DNA of 6,726 bases from a virus. Taxonomy: Duplodnaviria > Heunggongvirae > Uroviricota > Caudoviricetes. The notes beneath the pieces are model-generated. The model had not been told where the DNA came from. It searched no databases and saw only the letters and a program-made list of their open reading frames with translations. Positions 1 to 6,726 of the stretch are shown here, piece by piece (positions within the stretch are counted from its first letter, which is position 1; each line of letters starts with the position of its first letter). A program made the translations under genes and the position numbers. Location: the IMG/VR virus record IMGVR_UViG_2534682087_000016, positions 1 to 6,726 of that record; one strand, given 5' to 3'.

Positions 1-1410
<1,410 letters not shown>

Positions 1411-1427
1411 ATTTTATAACCCATAAC

Positions 1428-1452
1428 GGGCGTCAGAAATGACGCCTTTTTT
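1428..1452 (+). terminator. Rho-independent terminator downstream of J
   Basis: Perfect 7-bp stem GGCGTCA (1429-1435) / TGACGCC (1440-1446) with GAAA loop, followed directly by TTTTTT (1447-1452). Lies 18 nt after the J stop. Confidence 0.6.
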
Positions 1453-1465
1453 ATTGCAGAAAAGC

Positions 1466-1471
1466 GAGAGG
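1466..1471 (+). promoter_or_regulatory. Ribosome binding site for lom
   Basis: GAGAGG, 5 nt upstream of the ATG at 1477. Confidence 0.5.
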
Positions 1472-1476
1472 TAATT

Positions 1477-2074
1477 ATGCGTAAACTTTATGCCGCCATT
1501 TTGTCCGCAGCCATTTGTCTGGCCGTATCCGGTGCGCCTGCATGGGCGTCTGAACATCAGTCCACGCTGAGCGCGGGGTATCTTCATGCCTCGACGAACG
1601 TTCCCGGCAGCGATGATCTGAACGGGATTAACGTGAAATACCGTTATGAGTTTACGGACACACTGGGGATGGTGACGTCTTCAGCTATGCAGGAGACAAG
1701 AATCGCCAGTACCCGTTACAGCGATACCCGCTGGCATGAAGATTCCGTCGTAACCGCTGGTTCAGCGTATGGCGGGGCCGTCTGTGCGCGTGAATGAATG
1801 GTTCAGCGCGTATGCGATGGCGGGTGTGGCTTACAGCCGTGTGTCGACTTTCTCCGGGGATTATCTTCGCGTAACTGACAACAAGGGGAAAACGCACGAT
1901 GTACTGACCGGAAGTGATGACGGTCGCCACAGCAACACGTCTCTGGCGTGGGGGGCTGGCGTGCAGTTTAACCCGACCGAATCCGTGACCATTGACCTTG
2001 CTTATGAAGGTTCCGGTAGTGGCGACTGGCGATCGGATGCATTTATTGTTGGTATCGGATACCGTTTCTGACAA
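1477..2074 (+). pseudogene. lom: Lom outer-membrane protein (Ail/Lom/OmpX/PagC beta-barrel family), reading frame disrupted
   Basis: Start MRKLYAAILSAAICLAVSGAPAWA is a signal peptide. The gene is split between ORF 1477..1797 (frame 1) and ORF 1769..2071 (frame 2). By hand, the Lom-like sequence hops frames four times between ~1679 and ~1770: frame 1 …LGMVTS, frame 3 FSYAGDKNRQ (1680-1709), frame 1 TRYSDTRWHEDSV (1711-1749), frame 3 RNRWFSV (1749-1769), frame 2 MAGPSVRVNEWF… to the stop at 2072-2074. The second half (…GVAYSRVSTFSGDYLRVTDNKGKTHDVLTGSDDGRHSNTSLAWGAGVQFNPTE…GYRF) matches lambda Lom as I remember it. Confidence 0.75.
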
Positions 2075-2176
2075 CAGACGCCGATTTATCTTCTGTAAAT
2101 ATTGTTATGATACGCAGGTTCATCCACCTTATGGGGTGAACTGCGTTTGAGGAAACGTAAAGTTACACTGTCCTGA

Positions 2177-2208
2177 AGCCCGTGGCGTCACTGCTGCGGG
2201 CTTTTTTT
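2177..2208 (+). terminator. Rho-independent terminator between lom and stf
   Basis: Stem AAGCCCGTGGC (2177-2187) pairs with GCTGCGGGCTT (2192-2202), including three G-U pairs, around a 4-nt loop TCAC; a run of seven T (2202-2208) follows. Confidence 0.5.
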
Positions 2209-2211
2209 ATT

Positions 2212-2217
2212 GGTGGA
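2212..2217 (+). promoter_or_regulatory. Ribosome binding site for stf
   Basis: GGTGGA, 5-6 nt upstream of the ATG at 2223. Confidence 0.4.
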
Positions 2218-2567
2218 AAAGTATGACAGTAAAAATTTCTGGCGTGCTTAAAGATGGCACAGGAAAACCAGTACAGAACTGCACCATTGTGCTGAAGGCC
2301 AGACGAACCAGCAGCACGGTGGTGGTGAACACGGTGGCCTCTGAAAATCCGGATGAAGCCGGACGTTACAGCATGGATGTTGAGCATGGTCAGTACAGCG
2401 TCACCCTGCTGGTTGAAGGTTTTCCGCCTTCACATGCCGGGACCATTACCGTCTATGAAGGTTCCAGACCAGGTACGCTGAATGATTTTCTCGGTGCCAT
2501 GACGGAGGATGATGTCCGACCGGAGGCACTGCGCCGCTTTGAGCAGATGGTGGAAGAAGTGTCACGT

Positions 2568-3600
2568 AACGCCTCCGCGGTTGCACAGAATACGGCAGCC
2601 GCGAAAAAATCAGCCAGCGATGCCAGTGCATCAGCCAGCGAGGCGGTAACTCATGCAACCGATGCTGCAGCCTCAGCACGTGCCGCCAGCACGTCAGCCG
2701 GACAGGCCGCGTCGTCGGCTCAGTCAGCGTCTTCCAGCGCAGGAACGGCATCAACAAAGGCCAGTGAAGCATCGAAAAGTGCTGCTGCTGCAGAGTCCTC
2801 AAAAAGCGCGGCAGCTACCAGTGCCGCTGCGGCGAAAACGTCAGAAACGAATGCGGCAGCGTCACAACAATCAGCAGCCACTTCTGCATCCGCCGCGACC
2901 ACGAAGGCGTCAGAAGCAGCCACCTCAGCCCGGGATGCGGCGGCCTCAAAAGAGGCAGCGAAATCATCAGAAACGAACGCATCATCAAGCGCCAGTAGTG
3001 CCGCTTCCTCGGCAACGGCGGCAGGCAATTCCGCGAAGGCGGCAAAGACGTCTGAGACAAACGCCAGGTCTTCTGAAACGGCAGCGGGACAGAGCGCCTC
3101 AGCTGCGGCAGACTCAAAAACAGCGGCTGCATTATCTGCCAGTGCCGCGTCAACAAGTGCCGGGCAGGCCTCAGCCAGTGCCACCGCCGCCGGAAAATCG
3201 GCAGAAAGTGCTGCATCGTCTGCTTCAACAGCCACAACGAAGGCTGGCGAAGCCGCTGTACAGGCCAGCGCAGCAGCGAGGTCTGCTTCCGCAGCGAAGA
3301 CATCCGAGACGAACGCGAAAGCGTCGGAAACCAGCGCAGAATCCTCAAAAACGGCTGCCGCATCGTCCGCCAGTTCGGCGGCGTCATCGGCATCATCTGC
3401 GTCTGCTTCAAAAGATGAGGCGACCAGACAGGCGTCAGCAGCAAGGGAGCGCCACGACGGCATCCACGAAGGCGACAGAGGCAGCTGGCAGTGCGACGGC
3501 GCAGCTCAGAGCAAAAGTACGGCGGAATCGCGCAACGCGCGCTGAGACAGCGGCAAAACGGGCAGAGGATATTGCATCCGCCGTGGCGCTTGAGGATGCG
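2568..3600 (+). repeat. Low-complexity Ala/Ser/Thr/Lys/Glu-rich region of the Stf shaft, with reiterated AAKTSETNA-type motifs
   Basis: About 340 codons made almost only of A, S, T, K, E, G, Q and N. AAK(T/S)SETNA occurs four times, ASTSAGQA twice, and TTKA(S/G)EAA twice. The GCN-rich coding leaves other frames on both strands open, which generates the spurious ORFs here. Confidence 0.6.
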
Positions 3601-3603
3601 AGC

Positions 3604-3830
3604 ACGACGAAAAAGGGGATAGTACAGCTCAGCAGTGCGACCAACAGCACTTCCGAGTCACTGGCGGCAACGCCAAAAGCCGTTAAGGCCGCGTATGACC
3701 TGGCTAACGGGAAATACACCGCACAGGATGCAACGACAGCACAGAAAGGGATAATCCAGCTAAGCAGCGCGACCAACAGCACGTCTGAAACGCTTGCCGC
3801 GACACCAAAGGCAGTAAAAGCAGCCAATGA
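3604..3830 (+). repeat. Tandem duplication of a ~38-residue tail-fibre repeat
   Basis: [38 protein letters not shown] is followed by [38 protein letters not shown]; the two DNA copies are roughly three-quarters identical. Confidence 0.6.
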
Positions 3831-4804
3831 CAATGCTGAGAAACGTCTGCAGAAAGATCAGAACGGTGCGGATATCCCTGGCAAAGATACCTTTACGAAA
3901 AATATTGGTGCCTGCCGTGCCTTCGGTGGGTCAGTAAGCACAACAACAGGAAACTGGACGACTGCACAGTTTATCGAGTGGCTGGATTCTCAGGGAGCAT
4001 TTAACCATCCATACTGGATGTGCAAGGGTTCCTGGTCTTATGGCAATAATAAAATCATTACTGATACTGACTGCGGTAATATTCATCTCGCCGGAGCTGT
4101 CATTGAAGTAATGGGGATAAAGTCAGCGATGACGATCCGCATTACCACACCGACCACCTCCACTGGTGGTGGAACAACTAACGCCCAGTTTACCTATATT
4201 AATCACGGAACAGATTATTCACCTGGCTGGCGAAGGGACTATAACTCCAGAAATAAGCCAACGGCATCAGAGATCGGGGCGTTACCGTCAGGTGGAACAG
4301 CAGTATCATCAGTTAATCTGGCTTCAAAAGGTCGGGTAACCGCGCTGACAGACAATACGCAGGGGGCAGCAGGTCTTGAGTTATACGAGGTGTATAACAA
4401 CGGATATCCAACAGCGTATGGAAATATCATTCACCTGAAAGGGATGACAGCCGTTGGCGAAGGTGAGTTACTCATCGGCTGGAGTGGTACAAGCGGTGCT
4501 CATGCTCCGGCATTTATTCGTTCACGACGGGATACGACCGACGCAAACTGGTCGCCGTGGGCGCAGCTTTACACCTCGGCTCATCCTCCTGCAGAGTTTT
4601 ATCCAGTCGGTGCACCAATCCCGTGGCCATCAGATACCGTTCCGTCTGGTTATGCCCTGATGCAGGGGCAGACTTTTGACAAATCTGCATACCCGAAACT
4701 TGCAGTTGCTTATCCGTCAGGCGTGATCCCTGATATGCGTGGCTGGACGATTAAGGGCAAGCCCGCCAGTGGTCGGGCCGTATTATCTCAGGAACAGGAC
4801 GGCA

Positions 4805-5220
4805 TTAAATCGCACACCCACAGCGCCAGCGCATCCAGTACGGATTTGGGGACGAAAACCACATCGTCGTTTGATTACGGAACCAAATCCACGAATAACA
4901 CCGGGGCGCATACCCATAGTATTAGCGGGACCGCAAATAGTGCCGGTGCGCACCAACACAAGAGTTCCGGTGCATTTGGTGGCACGAACACGAGCATTTT
5001 CCCTAATGGTTATACCGCGATTTCAAATCTAAGCGCGGGGATTATGAGCACAACAAGCGGTAGTGGCCAGACTCGTAATGCAGGGAAGACATCATCAGAT
5101 GGTGCTCATACCCACTCGCTGTCCGGCACTGCTGCAAGCGCAGGCGCACATGCACATACTGTCGGTATTGGTGCTCATACGCACTCCGTTGCGATTGGTT
5201 CACATGGACACACCATCACC
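4805..5220 (+). repeat. His-x-His repeat region of the Stf distal tip
   Basis: Repeated motifs [73 protein letters not shown]. Interspersed HxH motifs are characteristic of the C-terminal domain shared by lambda Stf and T4 gp37. Confidence 0.6.
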
Positions 5221-5277
5221 GTTAACGCTGCTGGTAACGCGGAAAACACCGTCAAAAACATCGCATTTAACTATATT

Positions 5278-5283
5278 GTGAGG
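5278..5283 (+). promoter_or_regulatory. Ribosome binding site for tfa, inside the 3' end of stf
   Basis: GTGAGG, 8 nt upstream of the tfa ATG at 5292. The stf stop TAA (5290-5292) shares one base with that ATG (TAATG). Confidence 0.5.
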
Positions 5284-5291
5284 CTTGCATA

Positions 5292-5876
5292 ATGGCATTC
5301 AGAATAAGTGAACAACCACGGACCATAAAAATTTATAATCTGCTGTCCGGAACTAATGAATTTATTGGTGAAGGTGATGCATATATTCCGCCTCATACAG
5401 GTCTGCCAGCAAACAGTACCGACATTGCACCGCCAGATATTCCAGCTGGCTTCGTGGCTGTTTTCAACAGTGATGAGTTATCGTGGCATCTCGTTGAAGA
5501 TCATCGGGGTAAAACGGTTTATGACGTGGCTTCCGGCGACGCGTTATTTATTTCTGAACTCGGCTCATTACCGGAAAATGTCACCTGGTTATCCCCGGAA
5601 GGGGAGTTTCAGAAGTGGAACGGCACAGCCTGGGTGAAAGATGCAGAAGCAGAAAAACTATTCCGGATCCGGGAGGCGGAAGAAACAAAAAACAGCCTGA
5701 TGCAGGTAGCCAGTGAGCATATTGCGCCACTTCAGGATGCTGTAGATCTGGAAATCGCAACGGAGGAAGAAACCTCATTGCTGGAAGTCTGGAAAAAGTA
5801 TCGGGTGTTGCTGAACCGTGTTGATACATCAACTGCACCGGATATTGAATGGCCAACAGGACCCATTATCGAATAG
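5292..5876 (+). CDS. tfa: Tail fibre assembly protein Tfa (194 aa)
   Basis: Intact [65 protein letters not shown]… is near-identical to lambda Tfa as I remember it, with the same length. It sits directly downstream of stf and is translationally coupled to it. Confidence 0.92.
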
Positions 5877-5887
5877 TGCATTACGAA

Positions 5888-5926
5888 CTGCAGGATATTA
5901 TATGGGATAATATTCTGCAGTTTATT
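5888..5926 (+). terminator. Stem-loop terminator between the convergent tfa and GGDEF genes (stronger for the + strand)
   Basis: A 13-bp stem, CTGCAGGATATTA (5888-5900) pairing with TAATATTCTGCAG (5908-5920) with one G-U pair, around a 7-nt loop TATGGGA, followed by TTTATT (5921-5926). On the - strand the same hairpin is followed by a weaker U-tract. Confidence 0.5.
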
Positions 5927-5949
5927 GGGGCTGTATTTTAAAAAGGTGT

Positions 5950-6726
5950 TTATTTTGAGTGAGTTATCACCTTGTTCTTTCCGGTTCTTTTGGCTTGATA
6001 TAACGCTTTATCGGCATTGACTAACATTTCAGATGGACTGAGATTATTCTCTTTTGAAGTAAAACAACCAATACTGACGGTTATTTTCTCAGGTCCATGC
6101 GATAATAATTTTTTCGAGCATTGCTCTTCAATGTTTTTTCTGATTCGCTCTGCAATTGATAGCAAGAGCTTTTGAGTATTACCTTTAATGATAATACCGA
6201 ACTCCTCACCGCCTAAGCGCCCTAATATATCCTCTTTCCTGATGGATTTTTTTATTATTCTGGTAACCATTACTATGACTTGATCACCCATATGATGCCC
6301 CCATTTGTCATTGATGCTTTTGAAATTGTCAATATCTAACATTATTACTGAGAAATCATGGTGTTTTGATATATTCTTCAATGAGTCAATAAAGTATCTT
6401 CTATTGTATGTATTCGTTAGTGGATCATGAATTGCCATATGATTAGCATGATTTAATTTCCTGAAAACATAATACATGAGTGTTGAAATGATATAAATCA
6501 TTGATATCAATTCAAGAAATTTTGTCATGTACCATGCAGGATGGGATTTATCAATAAAATACAATAAAATTAGGTTATTGCATACTGACACTATACTAAT
6601 AAGTATTATACACAACCATATTTTTGAGTAATTACGTATGCTGATGCATGAGCTGATAAGTAATACAAGCCAAAATACTGATATTATTTTGGTGTACACG
6701 ATATTCCACGTCGACAAATGACGATT
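5950..6726 (-). CDS. Membrane-anchored diguanylate cyclase (GGDEF domain, GGEEF active site, RxxD I-site); N-terminus beyond the window
   Basis: The - strand ORF ends at the TAA at 5950-5952. The GGDEF domain motifs are all present: HDPLTNTYNRRYF, LDIDNFKSIND, GHHMGDQV, RLGGEEF (nt 6199-6219), TVSIGC, ADKALYQAKRTGKN. RKED lies 5 residues upstream of GGEEF. The N-terminal ~90 residues in the window are hydrophobic with at least three predicted transmembrane helices. The track's start at 6717 is a TTG codon and the frame stays open to 6726, so the gene is 5'-truncated by the window. GC is about 30%. Confidence 0.85.
   Translation of the reverse strand, partial: NRHLSTWNIVYTKIISVFWLVLLISSCISIRNYSKIWLCIILISIVSVCNNLILLYFIDKSHPAWYMTKFLELISMIYIISTLMYYVFRKLNHANHMAIHDPLTNTYNRRYFIDSLKNISKHHDFSVIMLDIDNFKSINDKWGHHMGDQVIVMVTRIIKKSIRKEDILGRLGGEEFGIIIKGNTQKLLLSIAERIRKNIEEQCSKKLLSHGPEKITVSIGCFTSKENNLSPSEMLVNADKALYQAKRTGKNKVITHSK

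What the first reader, a model, noticed from the sequence alone, without database searches (positions are those of the whole stretch)
5950..6726. AT-rich cargo gene encoding a catalytically intact membrane GGDEF diguanylate cyclase, directly downstream of the tail fibre module
A full set of GGDEF catalytic motifs (DxLT, DIDNFK, GGEEF, RxxD I-site) on an N-terminal multi-pass membrane anchor sits 73 bp from the tfa stop, convergently oriented, at ~30% GC against ~55-60% for the phage genes. The position after stf-tfa is where lambda carries its non-essential b region and where lambdoid prophages commonly carry lysogenic-conversion cargo. A prophage-linked c-di-GMP synthase could rewire host biofilm and motility, or act in phage-host signalling. 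I recall a prophage-associated cyclase (DgcX) reported in enteroaggregative / O104:H4 E. coli, but cannot confirm identity from sequence alone. The sensory N-terminal domain and promoter lie outside the window.
Basis: partly seen in the sequence, partly recalled or inferred. Interest (0 to 1): 0.72.

Follow-up and report, generated by a model that had tools for sequence, protein, structure and literature searches.

The report
Known prophage-borne diguanylate cyclase DgcX
The AT-rich gene after the phage tail-fibre genes is dgcX, the already described, highly expressed c-di-GMP synthase of enteroaggregative and O104:H4 E. coli; the one new point is that it lies inside the lambda-type prophage as its last cargo gene, not merely next to it.

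Summary
Window 5950-6726 (- strand) encodes residues 186-443 of a 443-aa MASE4-GGDEF protein. It has Pfam GGDEF (E 3e-45), GGEEF, an RxxD I-site, DxLT and DIDNFK. Its stop codon lies 73 bp from the tfa stop, in convergent orientation. GC is 32% against 47-55% for the tail genes.

The gene is dgcX (Richter et al. 2014). The fragment is 255/258 identical to DgcX of E. coli 55989. Published dgcX primers match exactly. GGEEF sits at 357-361, as in the published E359A/E360A mutants.

It is an accessory gene, present in 770 of 5426 complete E. coli genomes. In 767 of these it is fused to a tfa 3' end. In 588 it sits in the arrangement tfa-dgcX-sib/P arm-lambda att core-ybhB.

In PEC1011 and 55989 the 15-bp lambda core flanks a prophage of about 45 kb, and dgcX is on the phage side of attR. 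It fills the b-region slot that HK97 and HK106 leave empty. Variants of 51-85% identity occupy the same terminal position in other prophages at other sites.

This corrects the published views ("adjacent, hitchhiking by specialised transduction"; "not part of a mobile element"), but the gene and its activity are known. No sequenced phage genome carries it. Interest is low to moderate.

The parts
5950..6726 (-). dgcX, 3' 777 nt: residues 186-443 of the 443-aa DgcX plus the stop codon at 5950-5952. The 5' 555 nt and the promoter lie beyond the window edge.
   Evidence: ORF. 100% DNA match to WP_001580291.1 CDS in PEC1011. 255/258 aa identical to E. coli 55989 DgcX. Published primer dgcX-u-1310 matches window 5953-5971.
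5971..6435 (-). GGDEF catalytic domain (residues 283-437)
   Evidence: Pfam PF00990 E 1e-44 on the full-length protein and 3.2e-45 on the fragment. TIGR00254 E 3e-48. Aligns to PleD 1w25 (E 2.6e-24) with D316, N324, D333 and K431 matching PleD D327, N335, D344 and K442; PleD R446 is K435 here.
6199..6213 (-). A-site GGEEF (residues 357-361; E359 and E360)
   Evidence: Direct reading of the sequence. The numbering matches the published E359A/E360A catalytic mutants (PMC10459773).
6229..6240 (-). I-site RKED (RxxD, residues 348-351), five residues upstream of GGEEF
   Evidence: Aligns with PleD RAID. Richter et al. describe the same intact I-site.
6460..6726 (-). C-terminal part of the MASE4 membrane sensor domain (residues 186-274; last three of about eight TM helices)
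   Evidence: Pfam PF17158: 31.8 bits on the fragment, 122.9 bits (E 1.8e-35, residues 40-274) on the full length. Hydropathy segments.
5885..5923 (.). 17-bp-stem hairpin in the 73-bp spacer between the convergent tfa and dgcX stops; probable terminator for the late operon and possibly for dgcX
   Evidence: RNA fold gives -26.6 kcal/mol, z -6.7 on the + strand (followed by UUUAUU) and -16 kcal/mol, z -5.5 on the - strand. Conserved in all four chromosomal contexts aligned. Function is inferred.
5782..5876 (+). Last ~95 nt of tfa, which travel with dgcX in every context; homology to tfa genes that have no dgcX ends at about 5858-5875
   Evidence: Remnant loci keep only 96-120 bp of tfa next to dgcX. 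Several IMG/VR contigs share homology only from 5782. A 209-bp junction probe is covered at 80% or more in 767 genomes, against 770 with dgcX. tfa-only matches stop at 5858-5875.
5292..5876 (+). tfa, tail fibre assembly protein (194 aa)
   Evidence: Pfam Caudo_TAP E 2.8e-44.
2223..5292 (+). stf side tail fibre gene, frameshifted in this window (frame 3 to about 3542, frame 1 from about 3442)
   Evidence: tblastn with the intact 30EVA1 Stf. Alignment shows 1-2-nt deletions.
1477..2071 (+). lom (Ail/Lom outer-membrane protein), frameshifted in this window near 1750-1769
4..1410 (+). 3' end of J (host specificity / tail tip protein, residues ~665-1133)
   Evidence: tblastn 95.7% to 30EVA1 J.

Best explanation
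The feature is the 3' 58% of dgcX. DgcX is an inner-membrane MASE4-GGDEF diguanylate cyclase that condenses two GTP into c-di-GMP and is subject to product inhibition at its RxxD I-site. It is the single cargo gene (a moron) in the b-region slot of a lambda-type prophage. The order is ...J-lom-stf-tfa> <dgcX-[its own promoter]-terminator hairpin-tI/sib-attP P arm-core. In the lysogen it is transcribed from its own strong sigma70/sigmaS promoter, independently of the repressed phage genes. It adds c-di-GMP to the host pool. This raises cellulose-based biofilm matrix, lowers motility, and is thought to contribute to the adherent phenotype of EAEC/O104:H4; that is lysogenic conversion. Because it lies on the phage side of the att crossover, ordinary Int/Xis excision would carry it, and no aberrant excision is needed. 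The roughly 1.7-kb, 29%-GC cassette is fused to the conserved last ~95 nt of tfa. That shared segment would let homologous recombination move it between otherwise different tail modules and prophages. Shown here: identity, domain and motif integrity, position relative to att, cassette boundaries and distribution. Taken from papers: enzyme activity in vivo, expression level, sigma-factor dependence. Inferred: terminator roles, transfer by normal excision, benefit to phage or host.
For: Identity: 255/258 aa identical to DgcX of strain 55989, one of the strains in which dgcX was defined. Four published dgcX primers match exactly, one inside the window. GGEEF at 357-361 fits the published E359A/E360A mutants.

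Domains: MASE4 40-274 (E 1.8e-35) and GGDEF 283-437 (E 1e-44). The catalytic residues align with PleD.

Inside the prophage: in PEC1011, whose sequence is 100% identical over window 5877-6726, the lambda core GCTTTTTTATACTAA occurs once between int and ybhC and once between dgcX and ybhB. A lambda-like P arm with tI/sib lies between dgcX and the core, and B' lies beyond it. The layout is the same in 55989.

Empty-slot comparison: HK106 goes from tfa, through 124 bp, to the same hairpin, sib, attP and int.

Accessory status: 770 of 5426 complete genomes carry it; 767 keep the tfa-dgcX junction; 588 keep the whole tfa-dgcX-attR-ybhB arrangement. The tail genes next to an identical dgcX differ by about 10%.

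Family pattern: variants of 85%, 82%, 52% and 51% identity are also the terminal gene after tfa in prophages at torS/torT, the e14 region, an E. albertii locus and the Rac end. All have GGEEF, RxxD and about 30% GC.

Activity and expression come from PMC4287979 and PMC10459773. The best promoter-like site (TTGACA-17-TAGTAT, 73-100 nt upstream of the ATG) lies inside the published -412..+18 lacZ fusion fragment.
Against: The window stops inside the gene, so its own att site and promoter are not seen. Context is inferred from genomes with identical or near-identical dgcX. None of 50,697 deposited phage genomes carries dgcX by DNA or protein search, so packaging and transfer of a dgcX phage has not been observed. 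IMG/VR hits are computational prophage calls. In this window lom and stf are frameshifted, and several dgcX loci are plain prophage remnants. Many copies may therefore be immobile, host-retained genes. PleD R446 is K435 in DgcX (a conservative change). Enzyme activity rests on in vivo phenotypes in the literature, not on anything tested here. The signal sensed by MASE4 is unknown.
Confidence: 0.9

Rival explanations
1. dgcX is a chromosomal or independently acquired island that only abuts the prophage. It spreads by hitchhiking through aberrant excision (specialised transduction), or it is not part of any mobile element. These are the views in the literature.
For: [quoted passage not shown] No deposited phage genome contains it. 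A 67%-identical homologue sits in a context without phage genes, next to nfrBA-ybcH.
Against: The att core and an intact lambda-type P arm (P1/P2 arm sites, tI/sib) lie between dgcX and the host gene ybhB, so dgcX is on the phage side of the crossover. A gene captured from the bio side would lie beyond the core. A lambda-gal-type capture would leave a hybrid BOP' site, which is not seen. The gene stays fused to a tfa 3' end in 767 of 770 genomes and at six or more different chromosomal sites.
Confidence: 0.07
2. The copy in this window is a domesticated remnant. The prophage is defective and dgcX is kept by selection on the host, so it acts as a host biofilm gene and not as mobile phage cargo.
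For: lom and stf in the window are broken by several 1-2-nt deletions. Remnant loci keep dgcX while most phage genes are lost: AST205, T16R, and the 6.4-kb attL-int-...-tfa-dgcX mini-element L021.
Against: This does not conflict with a phage-cargo origin; it concerns only the present state of one copy. The clustered small deletions could be sequencing or assembly errors. J, tfa and dgcX are intact. PEC1011 and 55989 carry apparently complete ~45-kb prophages, although 55989 has frameshifts in terminase and rusA.
Confidence: 0.3
3. The protein is a degenerate GGDEF that binds c-di-GMP but does not make it, like its paralogue CdgI/YeaI.
For: CdgI is the closest K-12 relative (38% identity, same MASE4-GGDEF architecture).
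Against: DgcX has canonical GGEEF where CdgI has EGEVF, plus all metal- and base-binding residues. Published overexpression phenotypes are abolished by E359A/E360A.
Confidence: 0.02

Closest known systems
DgcX of EAEC 55989 / O104:H4 outbreak strain (Richter et al. 2014, PMC4287979; Cimdins-Ahne et al. 2023, PMC10459773)
   Same: It is the same gene. Identity is 99% over the 258 residues in the window. It has the same 443-aa MASE4-GGDEF architecture, GGEEF 357-361, RxxD I-site and upstream region (primer matches). It has the same neighbours, a lambdoid tail module on one side and ybhB-bio on the other.
   Different: There are three amino-acid differences from the 55989 allele (I193T, K245Q, K390E in window-to-55989 direction). 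The adjacent J/lom/stf sequences are a different mosaic, about 90% identical. The papers place dgcX next to the prophage; here it maps inside the att-bounded element.
DgcT (YcdT) and CdgI (YeaI) of E. coli K-12, chromosomal MASE4-GGDEF paralogues
   Same: Same domain architecture and length. Identity is 37% (DgcT) and 38% (CdgI) over about 410-425 residues. DgcT also has GGEEF and RxxD.
   Different: Both are core-genome genes at fixed loci (pgaA-ycdT; yeaH-yeaI-yeaJ), with 38-39% GC against 29%. CdgI has a degenerate A-site. According to the literature ycdT is weakly expressed, whereas dgcX is the most strongly expressed DGC gene.
Lambda b-region / lambdoid morons (lom, bor; ea47-ea31-ea59 in lambda)
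   Same: Same position between tfa and sib/attP. Leftward orientation, like lambda ea47-ea59. Dispensable, with deviant GC, its own promoter and a flanking terminator. Expressed in the lysogen (by literature).
   Different: The cargo is a second-messenger synthase. The slot holds this one gene only. Transfer in virions has not been demonstrated.
PleD (C. crescentus), the structural archetype of active GGDEF cyclases (PDB 1w25)
   Same: Catalytic domain with E 2.6e-24. A-site, I-site, Mg and guanine contacts are conserved.
   Different: PleD has a soluble receiver-domain input and DgcX a membrane MASE4 input. PleD R446 is K435 in DgcX.

Membership tests
Active GGDEF diguanylate cyclase | GGDEF domain detected above the curated threshold | tested here: met
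   PF00990 154 bits (cut-off 23.8) on the window fragment; TIGR00254 163.7 bits (cut-off 37.4) on the full length.
Active GGDEF diguanylate cyclase | Intact A-site GG(D/E)EF | tested here: met
   GGEEF at residues 357-361, window 6199-6213.
Active GGDEF diguanylate cyclase | Metal-, base- and phosphate-binding residues equivalent to PleD D327, N335, D344, K442, R446 | tested here: met
   D316, N324, D333 and K431 are conserved. R446 is replaced conservatively by K435 (alignment to 1w25).
Active GGDEF diguanylate cyclase | c-di-GMP synthesis demonstrated | not testable with these tools
   Literature only: overexpression raises cellulose and lowers motility, and the effect is lost in E359A/E360A mutants (PMC10459773).
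I-site-regulated DGC | RxxD motif five residues upstream of GG(D/E)EF | tested here: met
   R348-K-E-D351, then ILGRL, then GGEEF.
MASE4 membrane sensor domain (PF17158) | Profile match above the gathering score, multi-pass membrane region | tested here: met
   122.9 bits (cut-off 28.4), residues 40-274 of the full protein; 31.8 bits for the in-window part. About eight hydrophobic segments.
DgcX (the specific gene of Richter et al. 2014) | Sequence identity with DgcX of a strain in which it was defined | tested here: met
   255/258 identical to the 55989 protein WP_000586343.1. Belongs to a 90%-identity cluster of 6087 E. coli sequences.
DgcX (the specific gene of Richter et al. 2014) | Published dgcX primers anneal | tested here: met
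   u-1310 matches window 5953-5971. d-412 and u-18 match L001 21782-21798 and 21393-21414. d-(-62) was matched by eye to L001 about 21440-21470 in the sequence; it was not searched.
DgcX (the specific gene of Richter et al. 2014) | Location beside a lambdoid prophage, mostly at lambda attB (ybhC/ybhB) | tested here: met
   The window shows J-lom-stf-tfa next to the gene. 588 of 770 carrier genomes have tfa-dgcX-attR-ybhB. The window's own att side is not visible.
Prophage moron / lysogenic-conversion cargo | Lies within the att-bounded prophage | tested here: met
   The lambda core flanks int...dgcX in PEC1011 and 55989, with the P arm and sib between dgcX and the core.
Prophage moron / lysogenic-conversion cargo | Dispensable insert absent from related phages; deviant base composition | tested here: met
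   HK106 and HK97 go from tfa almost directly to sib/attP. GC is 29% against 56% for the prophage late region.
Prophage moron / lysogenic-conversion cargo | Own promoter and terminator; expressed in the lysogen | tested here: inconclusive
   A promoter-like TTGACA-17-TAGTAT site and flanking hairpins were found, but promoter-like sites are no more frequent than in shuffled sequence. Strong expression of the -412..+18 fusion is from the literature.
Prophage moron / lysogenic-conversion cargo | Carried in virions and transferred by lysogenisation | tested here: not met
   No record among 50,697 phage genomes carries it by megablast or tblastn, and no PLSDB plasmid does. This is absence of evidence, not evidence of absence.
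Known anti-phage defence system component | Match to a PADLOC model | tested here: not met
   0 families at E up to 0.001.

The most novel reading that the evidence does not exclude
DgcX-type MASE4-GGDEF cyclases may be a dedicated phage cargo family: a 'terminal moron' welded to the conserved 3' end of tfa. On this reading it moves between unrelated temperate-phage tail modules and att systems by recombination and is exported by normal excision. In the excised genome the gene would sit directly downstream of PL-int-attP-sib, in the orientation of lambda ea47-ea59. It could then be expressed both from its own promoter in the lysogen and by N-antiterminated readthrough during lytic growth. Its c-di-GMP might act on phage-relevant surfaces (matrix shielding, flagella, or the c-di-GMP-dependent NfrB glycan that phage N4 uses as a receptor). 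That last idea is hinted at by a 67% homologue encoded next to nfrBA-ybcH.
Probability: 0.2. Interest if true: 0.55.

Novelty: already known. Interest (0 to 1): 0.3.

Why it matters
DgcX is regarded as a contributor to the strong adherence and biofilm phenotype of EAEC and the 2011 O104:H4 outbreak strain. Placing it on the phage side of attR, and showing that about 14% of complete E. coli genomes carry it almost always fused to a tail-fibre assembly gene, makes it a clear example of a phage-borne c-di-GMP synthase. A recent review calls such phage-borne elements rare. It also implies that ordinary lysogenisation could spread a biofilm-promoting trait. The gene, its activity and its prophage association were already published, so this window adds confirmation and a positional refinement, not a discovery.

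Tried and rejected
(1) Core chromosomal gene abutting attB: rejected. The gene is absent from 4656 of 5426 complete genomes, has 29% GC, and the att core lies beyond it.

(2) Sequenced phages carrying dgcX: none in INPHARED by megablast. Only the sib/attP part of the query matched, and tblastn gave only GGDEF-domain hits at 40% identity or less, many from questionable records.

(3) Plasmids: PLSDB has only tfa 3'-end matches. The three 'plasmid' places were not followed up.

(4) Close relatives in GTDB species representatives: only E. coli, plus a 2.5-kb 'Bacillota' MAG contig that also carries the lambda att core and is evidently misbinned E. coli.

It was repeated with the window fragment.

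(6) Defence-system membership: no PADLOC hit. PHROGs hits are GGDEF families of unknown function.

(7) att repeats around the torS/torT remnant L037: none convincing at seed 12, so the boundaries of that element remain unmapped.

(8) No complete RefSeq genome matches the whole window. The best hit has 95.8% identity over 95% of the window, because the tail-fibre region is mosaic, so the source strain was not identified.

(9) Structure prediction was not run, because identity and the literature made it unnecessary.

Full report
**Observation.** On the minus strand an open frame runs from a stop codon at 5950-5952 to the window edge at 6726. Its 258 residues hit Pfam GGDEF (residues 98-252, E 3.2e-45) and the C-terminal third of MASE4 (31.8 bits, cut-off 28.4). 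In full-length numbering they are DPLT 286-289, DIDNFK 316-321, RKED 348-351 and GGEEF 357-361. The gene converges on tfa (5292-5876; Caudo_TAP E 2.8e-44) across a 73-bp spacer. GC is 32% for the in-window part and 29% for the whole gene, against 47-55% for J, lom, stf and tfa.

**Identity.** Window 5877-6726 is 100% identical to a stretch of E. coli PEC1011. There the complete CDS is 443 aa and is annotated 'sensor domain-containing diguanylate cyclase'. The full protein has MASE4 at 40-274 (E 1.8e-35) and GGDEF at 283-437 (E 1e-44), with about eight hydrophobic segments.

Richter et al. 2014 (PMC4287979) defined dgcX in EAEC 55989, HUSEC041 and the O104:H4 outbreak strain. They described an extra GGDEF gene with intact A- and I-sites and an eight-helix N-terminal domain, lying at lambda attB beside prophage DNA. 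I retrieved the 55989 locus. The window fragment is 255/258 identical to its protein. Three of the paper's four dgcX primers were searched and match exactly: d-412 and u-18 in the PEC1011 locus and u-1310 at window 5953-5971. The fourth, d-(-62), was only read against the sequence by eye. GGEEF at 357-361 fits the E359A/E360A mutants of Cimdins-Ahne et al. 2023 (PMC10459773). The gene is therefore dgcX.

**Catalytic competence.** Alignment to PleD (1w25, E 2.6e-24) shows that D316, N324, D333 and K431 correspond to PleD D327, N335, D344 and K442. PleD R446 is conservatively K435. The K-12 paralogues are DgcT (37% identity, GGEEF) and CdgI (38%, degenerate EGEVF). In vivo activity (cellulose up, motility down, abolished by A-site mutations) and very high sigma70/sigmaS-dependent expression are from the papers. 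They were not tested here.

**Where the gene sits relative to the prophage.** In PEC1011 the 15-bp lambda core GCTTTTTTATACTAA occurs once between dgcX and ybhB (L001 22045-22059). It occurs once more between the integrase gene and ybhC (L007 23181-23195). The two cores bound a 44.9-kb prophage with a complete-looking gene set: int, xis, exo/bet/gam, repressor region, O/P, nin region, Q, lysis, terminase through J, lom, stf, tfa.

Between the dgcX start codon (21405) and the core lie four elements in order:
- about 250 bp of AT-rich upstream DNA;
- a strong hairpin followed by a U-run on the dgcX strand (about 21667-21705, -24.5 kcal/mol, z -4.9);
- the lambda tI/sib hairpin (about 21868-21905, -25.9 kcal/mol);
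- a lambda-type P arm with the P1 and P2 Int arm sites.

Lambda, HK97, HK106 and phi80 match this stretch from 21654-21793 onward, and nothing to its left. Right of the core is the host B' arm and ybhB. Strain 55989 has the same layout, with cores at L030 16138-16152 and L006 36847-36861. dgcX is therefore on the phage side of attR, in the b-region slot. In HK106 that slot is empty: tfa, 124 bp, then the same hairpin, sib, attP and int.

This corrects two published views. Richter et al. wrote that dgcX lies 'adjacent' to prophages and may 'hitchhike by specialised transduction'. [quoted passage not shown] A gene captured from the bio side would lie beyond the core, and a gal-type capture would leave a hybrid att. 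Neither is seen.

**Cassette and distribution.**
- dgcX is present in 770 of 5426 complete E. coli genomes, nearly always as a single chromosomal copy.
- A 209-bp probe across the tfa 3' end, spacer and dgcX 3' end is covered at 80% or more in 767 genomes. The gene is thus essentially always fused to a tfa end.
- The full tfa-dgcX-attR-ybhB arrangement is found in 588 genomes.
- Elsewhere the gene sits in decayed prophage islands. Examples are the yagU/pao region in AST205 and argW-dsdC in T16R, a 90%-identity allele at the locus reported for Fec101. These keep only 96-120 bp of tfa and about 355 bp upstream of dgcX.
- Homology to tfa genes without dgcX ends at window 5858-5875. The cassette therefore begins within the last codons of tfa and spans about 1.7 kb.
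- The tail genes beside an identical dgcX are mosaic. Window and PEC1011 are 100% identical over 5877-6726 and about 98% from 5096 onward, but only about 90% identical upstream.
- Sixteen IMG/VR contigs carry the gene, and each shares homology with the window across the tfa-dgcX junction. One of them (L021) is a 6.4-kb mini-element, attL-int-...-truncated stf-tfa-dgcX.

**Family view.** A search of 5.8 billion proteins found graded relatives in Escherichia at 85, 82-84, 80, 67 and 51-52% identity. Below these come the Citrobacter YeaI orthologue (41%) and DgcT-like proteins. Their contexts are as follows:
- The 85% allele is the gene after tfa, again with a 75-bp convergent gap. It lies in a prophage with a baseplate-type tail module between torT and torS; from memory, that is the HK022 attachment region.
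- The 82% allele follows J-lom-stf-tfa in the e14/ycgE-ycgF region.
- The 51% allele is the last gene of a Rac-type prophage before uspF.
- A 52% E. albertii allele follows tfa with one extra metallo-beta-lactamase-fold gene in between.
- The 67% allele is the exception. It lies between ybcH-nfrA-nfrB and folD with no phage genes nearby.

All of these retain GGEEF and RxxD and have about 30% GC. The terminal-cargo position is thus a property of the family, not of one prophage.

**Mechanism.** Shown here are the gene's identity, its intact catalytic and inhibitory sites, its membrane sensor domain, its position inside the prophage, the cassette limits and its prevalence. From the literature come c-di-GMP-dependent phenotypes and strong constitutive plus stationary-phase expression from the 412 bp upstream. 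That fragment contains the best promoter-like site found here, TTGACA-17-TAGTAT, although promoter-like sites in the region are no more frequent than in shuffled sequence.

Three points are inferred. First, the 17-bp-stem hairpin at window 5885-5923 (z -6.7) probably terminates the late operon and perhaps dgcX. Second, the upstream hairpins probably insulate dgcX from leftward transcription in the lysogen. After excision the gene would lie downstream of PL-int-attP-sib in the orientation of lambda's ea genes, so N-antiterminated transcripts could reach it. Third, normal Int/Xis excision should carry the gene.

**Limits.** The window ends inside dgcX, so its own promoter and att site are unseen. 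No deposited phage genome and no PLSDB plasmid carries dgcX, so transfer in virions is unproven. In this window lom and stf are each broken by several 1-2-nt deletions relative to close relatives. Either this copy is a decaying prophage or the sequence is error-prone there. PADLOC gives no defence-system match.

**Verdict.** The feature is an already known gene in an already known general context. The added value is positional: dgcX is true b-region cargo inside the att-bounded prophage, fused to tfa, and the same holds across diverged alleles in other prophages. Novelty: already known. Interest 0.3.

Noticed in passing
window 1477-2071 (lom) and 2223-5292 (stf): Both genes are frameshifted. 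lom switches frame near 1750-1769 and stf near 3442-3542. Each is caused by clusters of 1-2-nt deletions relative to otherwise 95-97% identical relatives. J, tfa and dgcX are intact. Either the prophage is decaying or these GC-rich, repetitive stretches contain sequencing errors.
   Followed up: partly
L031-L033 8001-9335 (e.g. CP057162.1 3131418-3132752): A 67%-identical DgcX homologue (GGEEF and RxxD intact, 30% GC) lies with no phage genes nearby. It sits directly after cusS-nfrB-nfrA-ybcH and before folD, next to the c-di-GMP-dependent NfrB glycan synthase that phage N4 needs (PMC8669469, PMC8669472). It could be a lead on the ancestry or target of the family.
   Followed up: no
L021 (IMGVR_UViG_2939152649_000004) 380-6446: A mini-element of about 6.4 kb: attL (B-core-P'), a 356-aa integrase, a few small ORFs, a truncated stf, tfa and dgcX. 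The cyclase is retained after nearly all phage genes were lost.
   Followed up: partly
L037-L039 8001-9992; L042 8001-9992: The 85% and 82% alleles keep the same convergent 75-bp spacing to tfa. They sit in prophages at torS/torT (baseplate-type tail genes) and in the e14/ycgE-ycgF region. No att repeats were found for the torS/torT remnant.
   Followed up: partly
L040 9533-10336; L041 2793-3665: In E. albertii a metallo-beta-lactamase-fold gene sits between tfa and the 52% DgcX-like gene. It has a faint Pfam hint to anti-Pycsar Apyc1, a cyclic-nucleotide-degrading phage protein.
   Followed up: no
L005 (T16R) ~13550-13620 vs L001 21478-21506: The argW-dsdC allele (90% DNA identity) differs in the candidate promoter. 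The -35 hexamer is TTAATA instead of TTGACA, and there is a 1-nt insertion near the -10. Its expression may differ from the 'blockbuster' level reported for the attB allele.
   Followed up: no
L009 (JAEWTL010000008.1, 'Bacillota bacterium' MAG) 113-2267: A 2.5-kb contig with 99% dgcX, the tfa 3' end and the lambda att core. It is almost certainly E. coli DNA misbinned into a Bacillota MAG.
   Followed up: partly
L007 4715-5008, 6799-7881, 10988-11482 (PEC1011 prophage): The same prophage carries other conversion-type cargo: iss/bor, an OmpD/NmpC-type porin between Q and the lysis genes, and a gene annotated as TagO-like.
   Followed up: no
window ~2550-3750: The N-terminal third of stf encodes a long Ala/Ser/Thr/Lys-rich repetitive tract (strong AT skew, 60-63% GC). 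Its opposite strand and other frames give long spurious ORFs in the ORF list.
   Followed up: no
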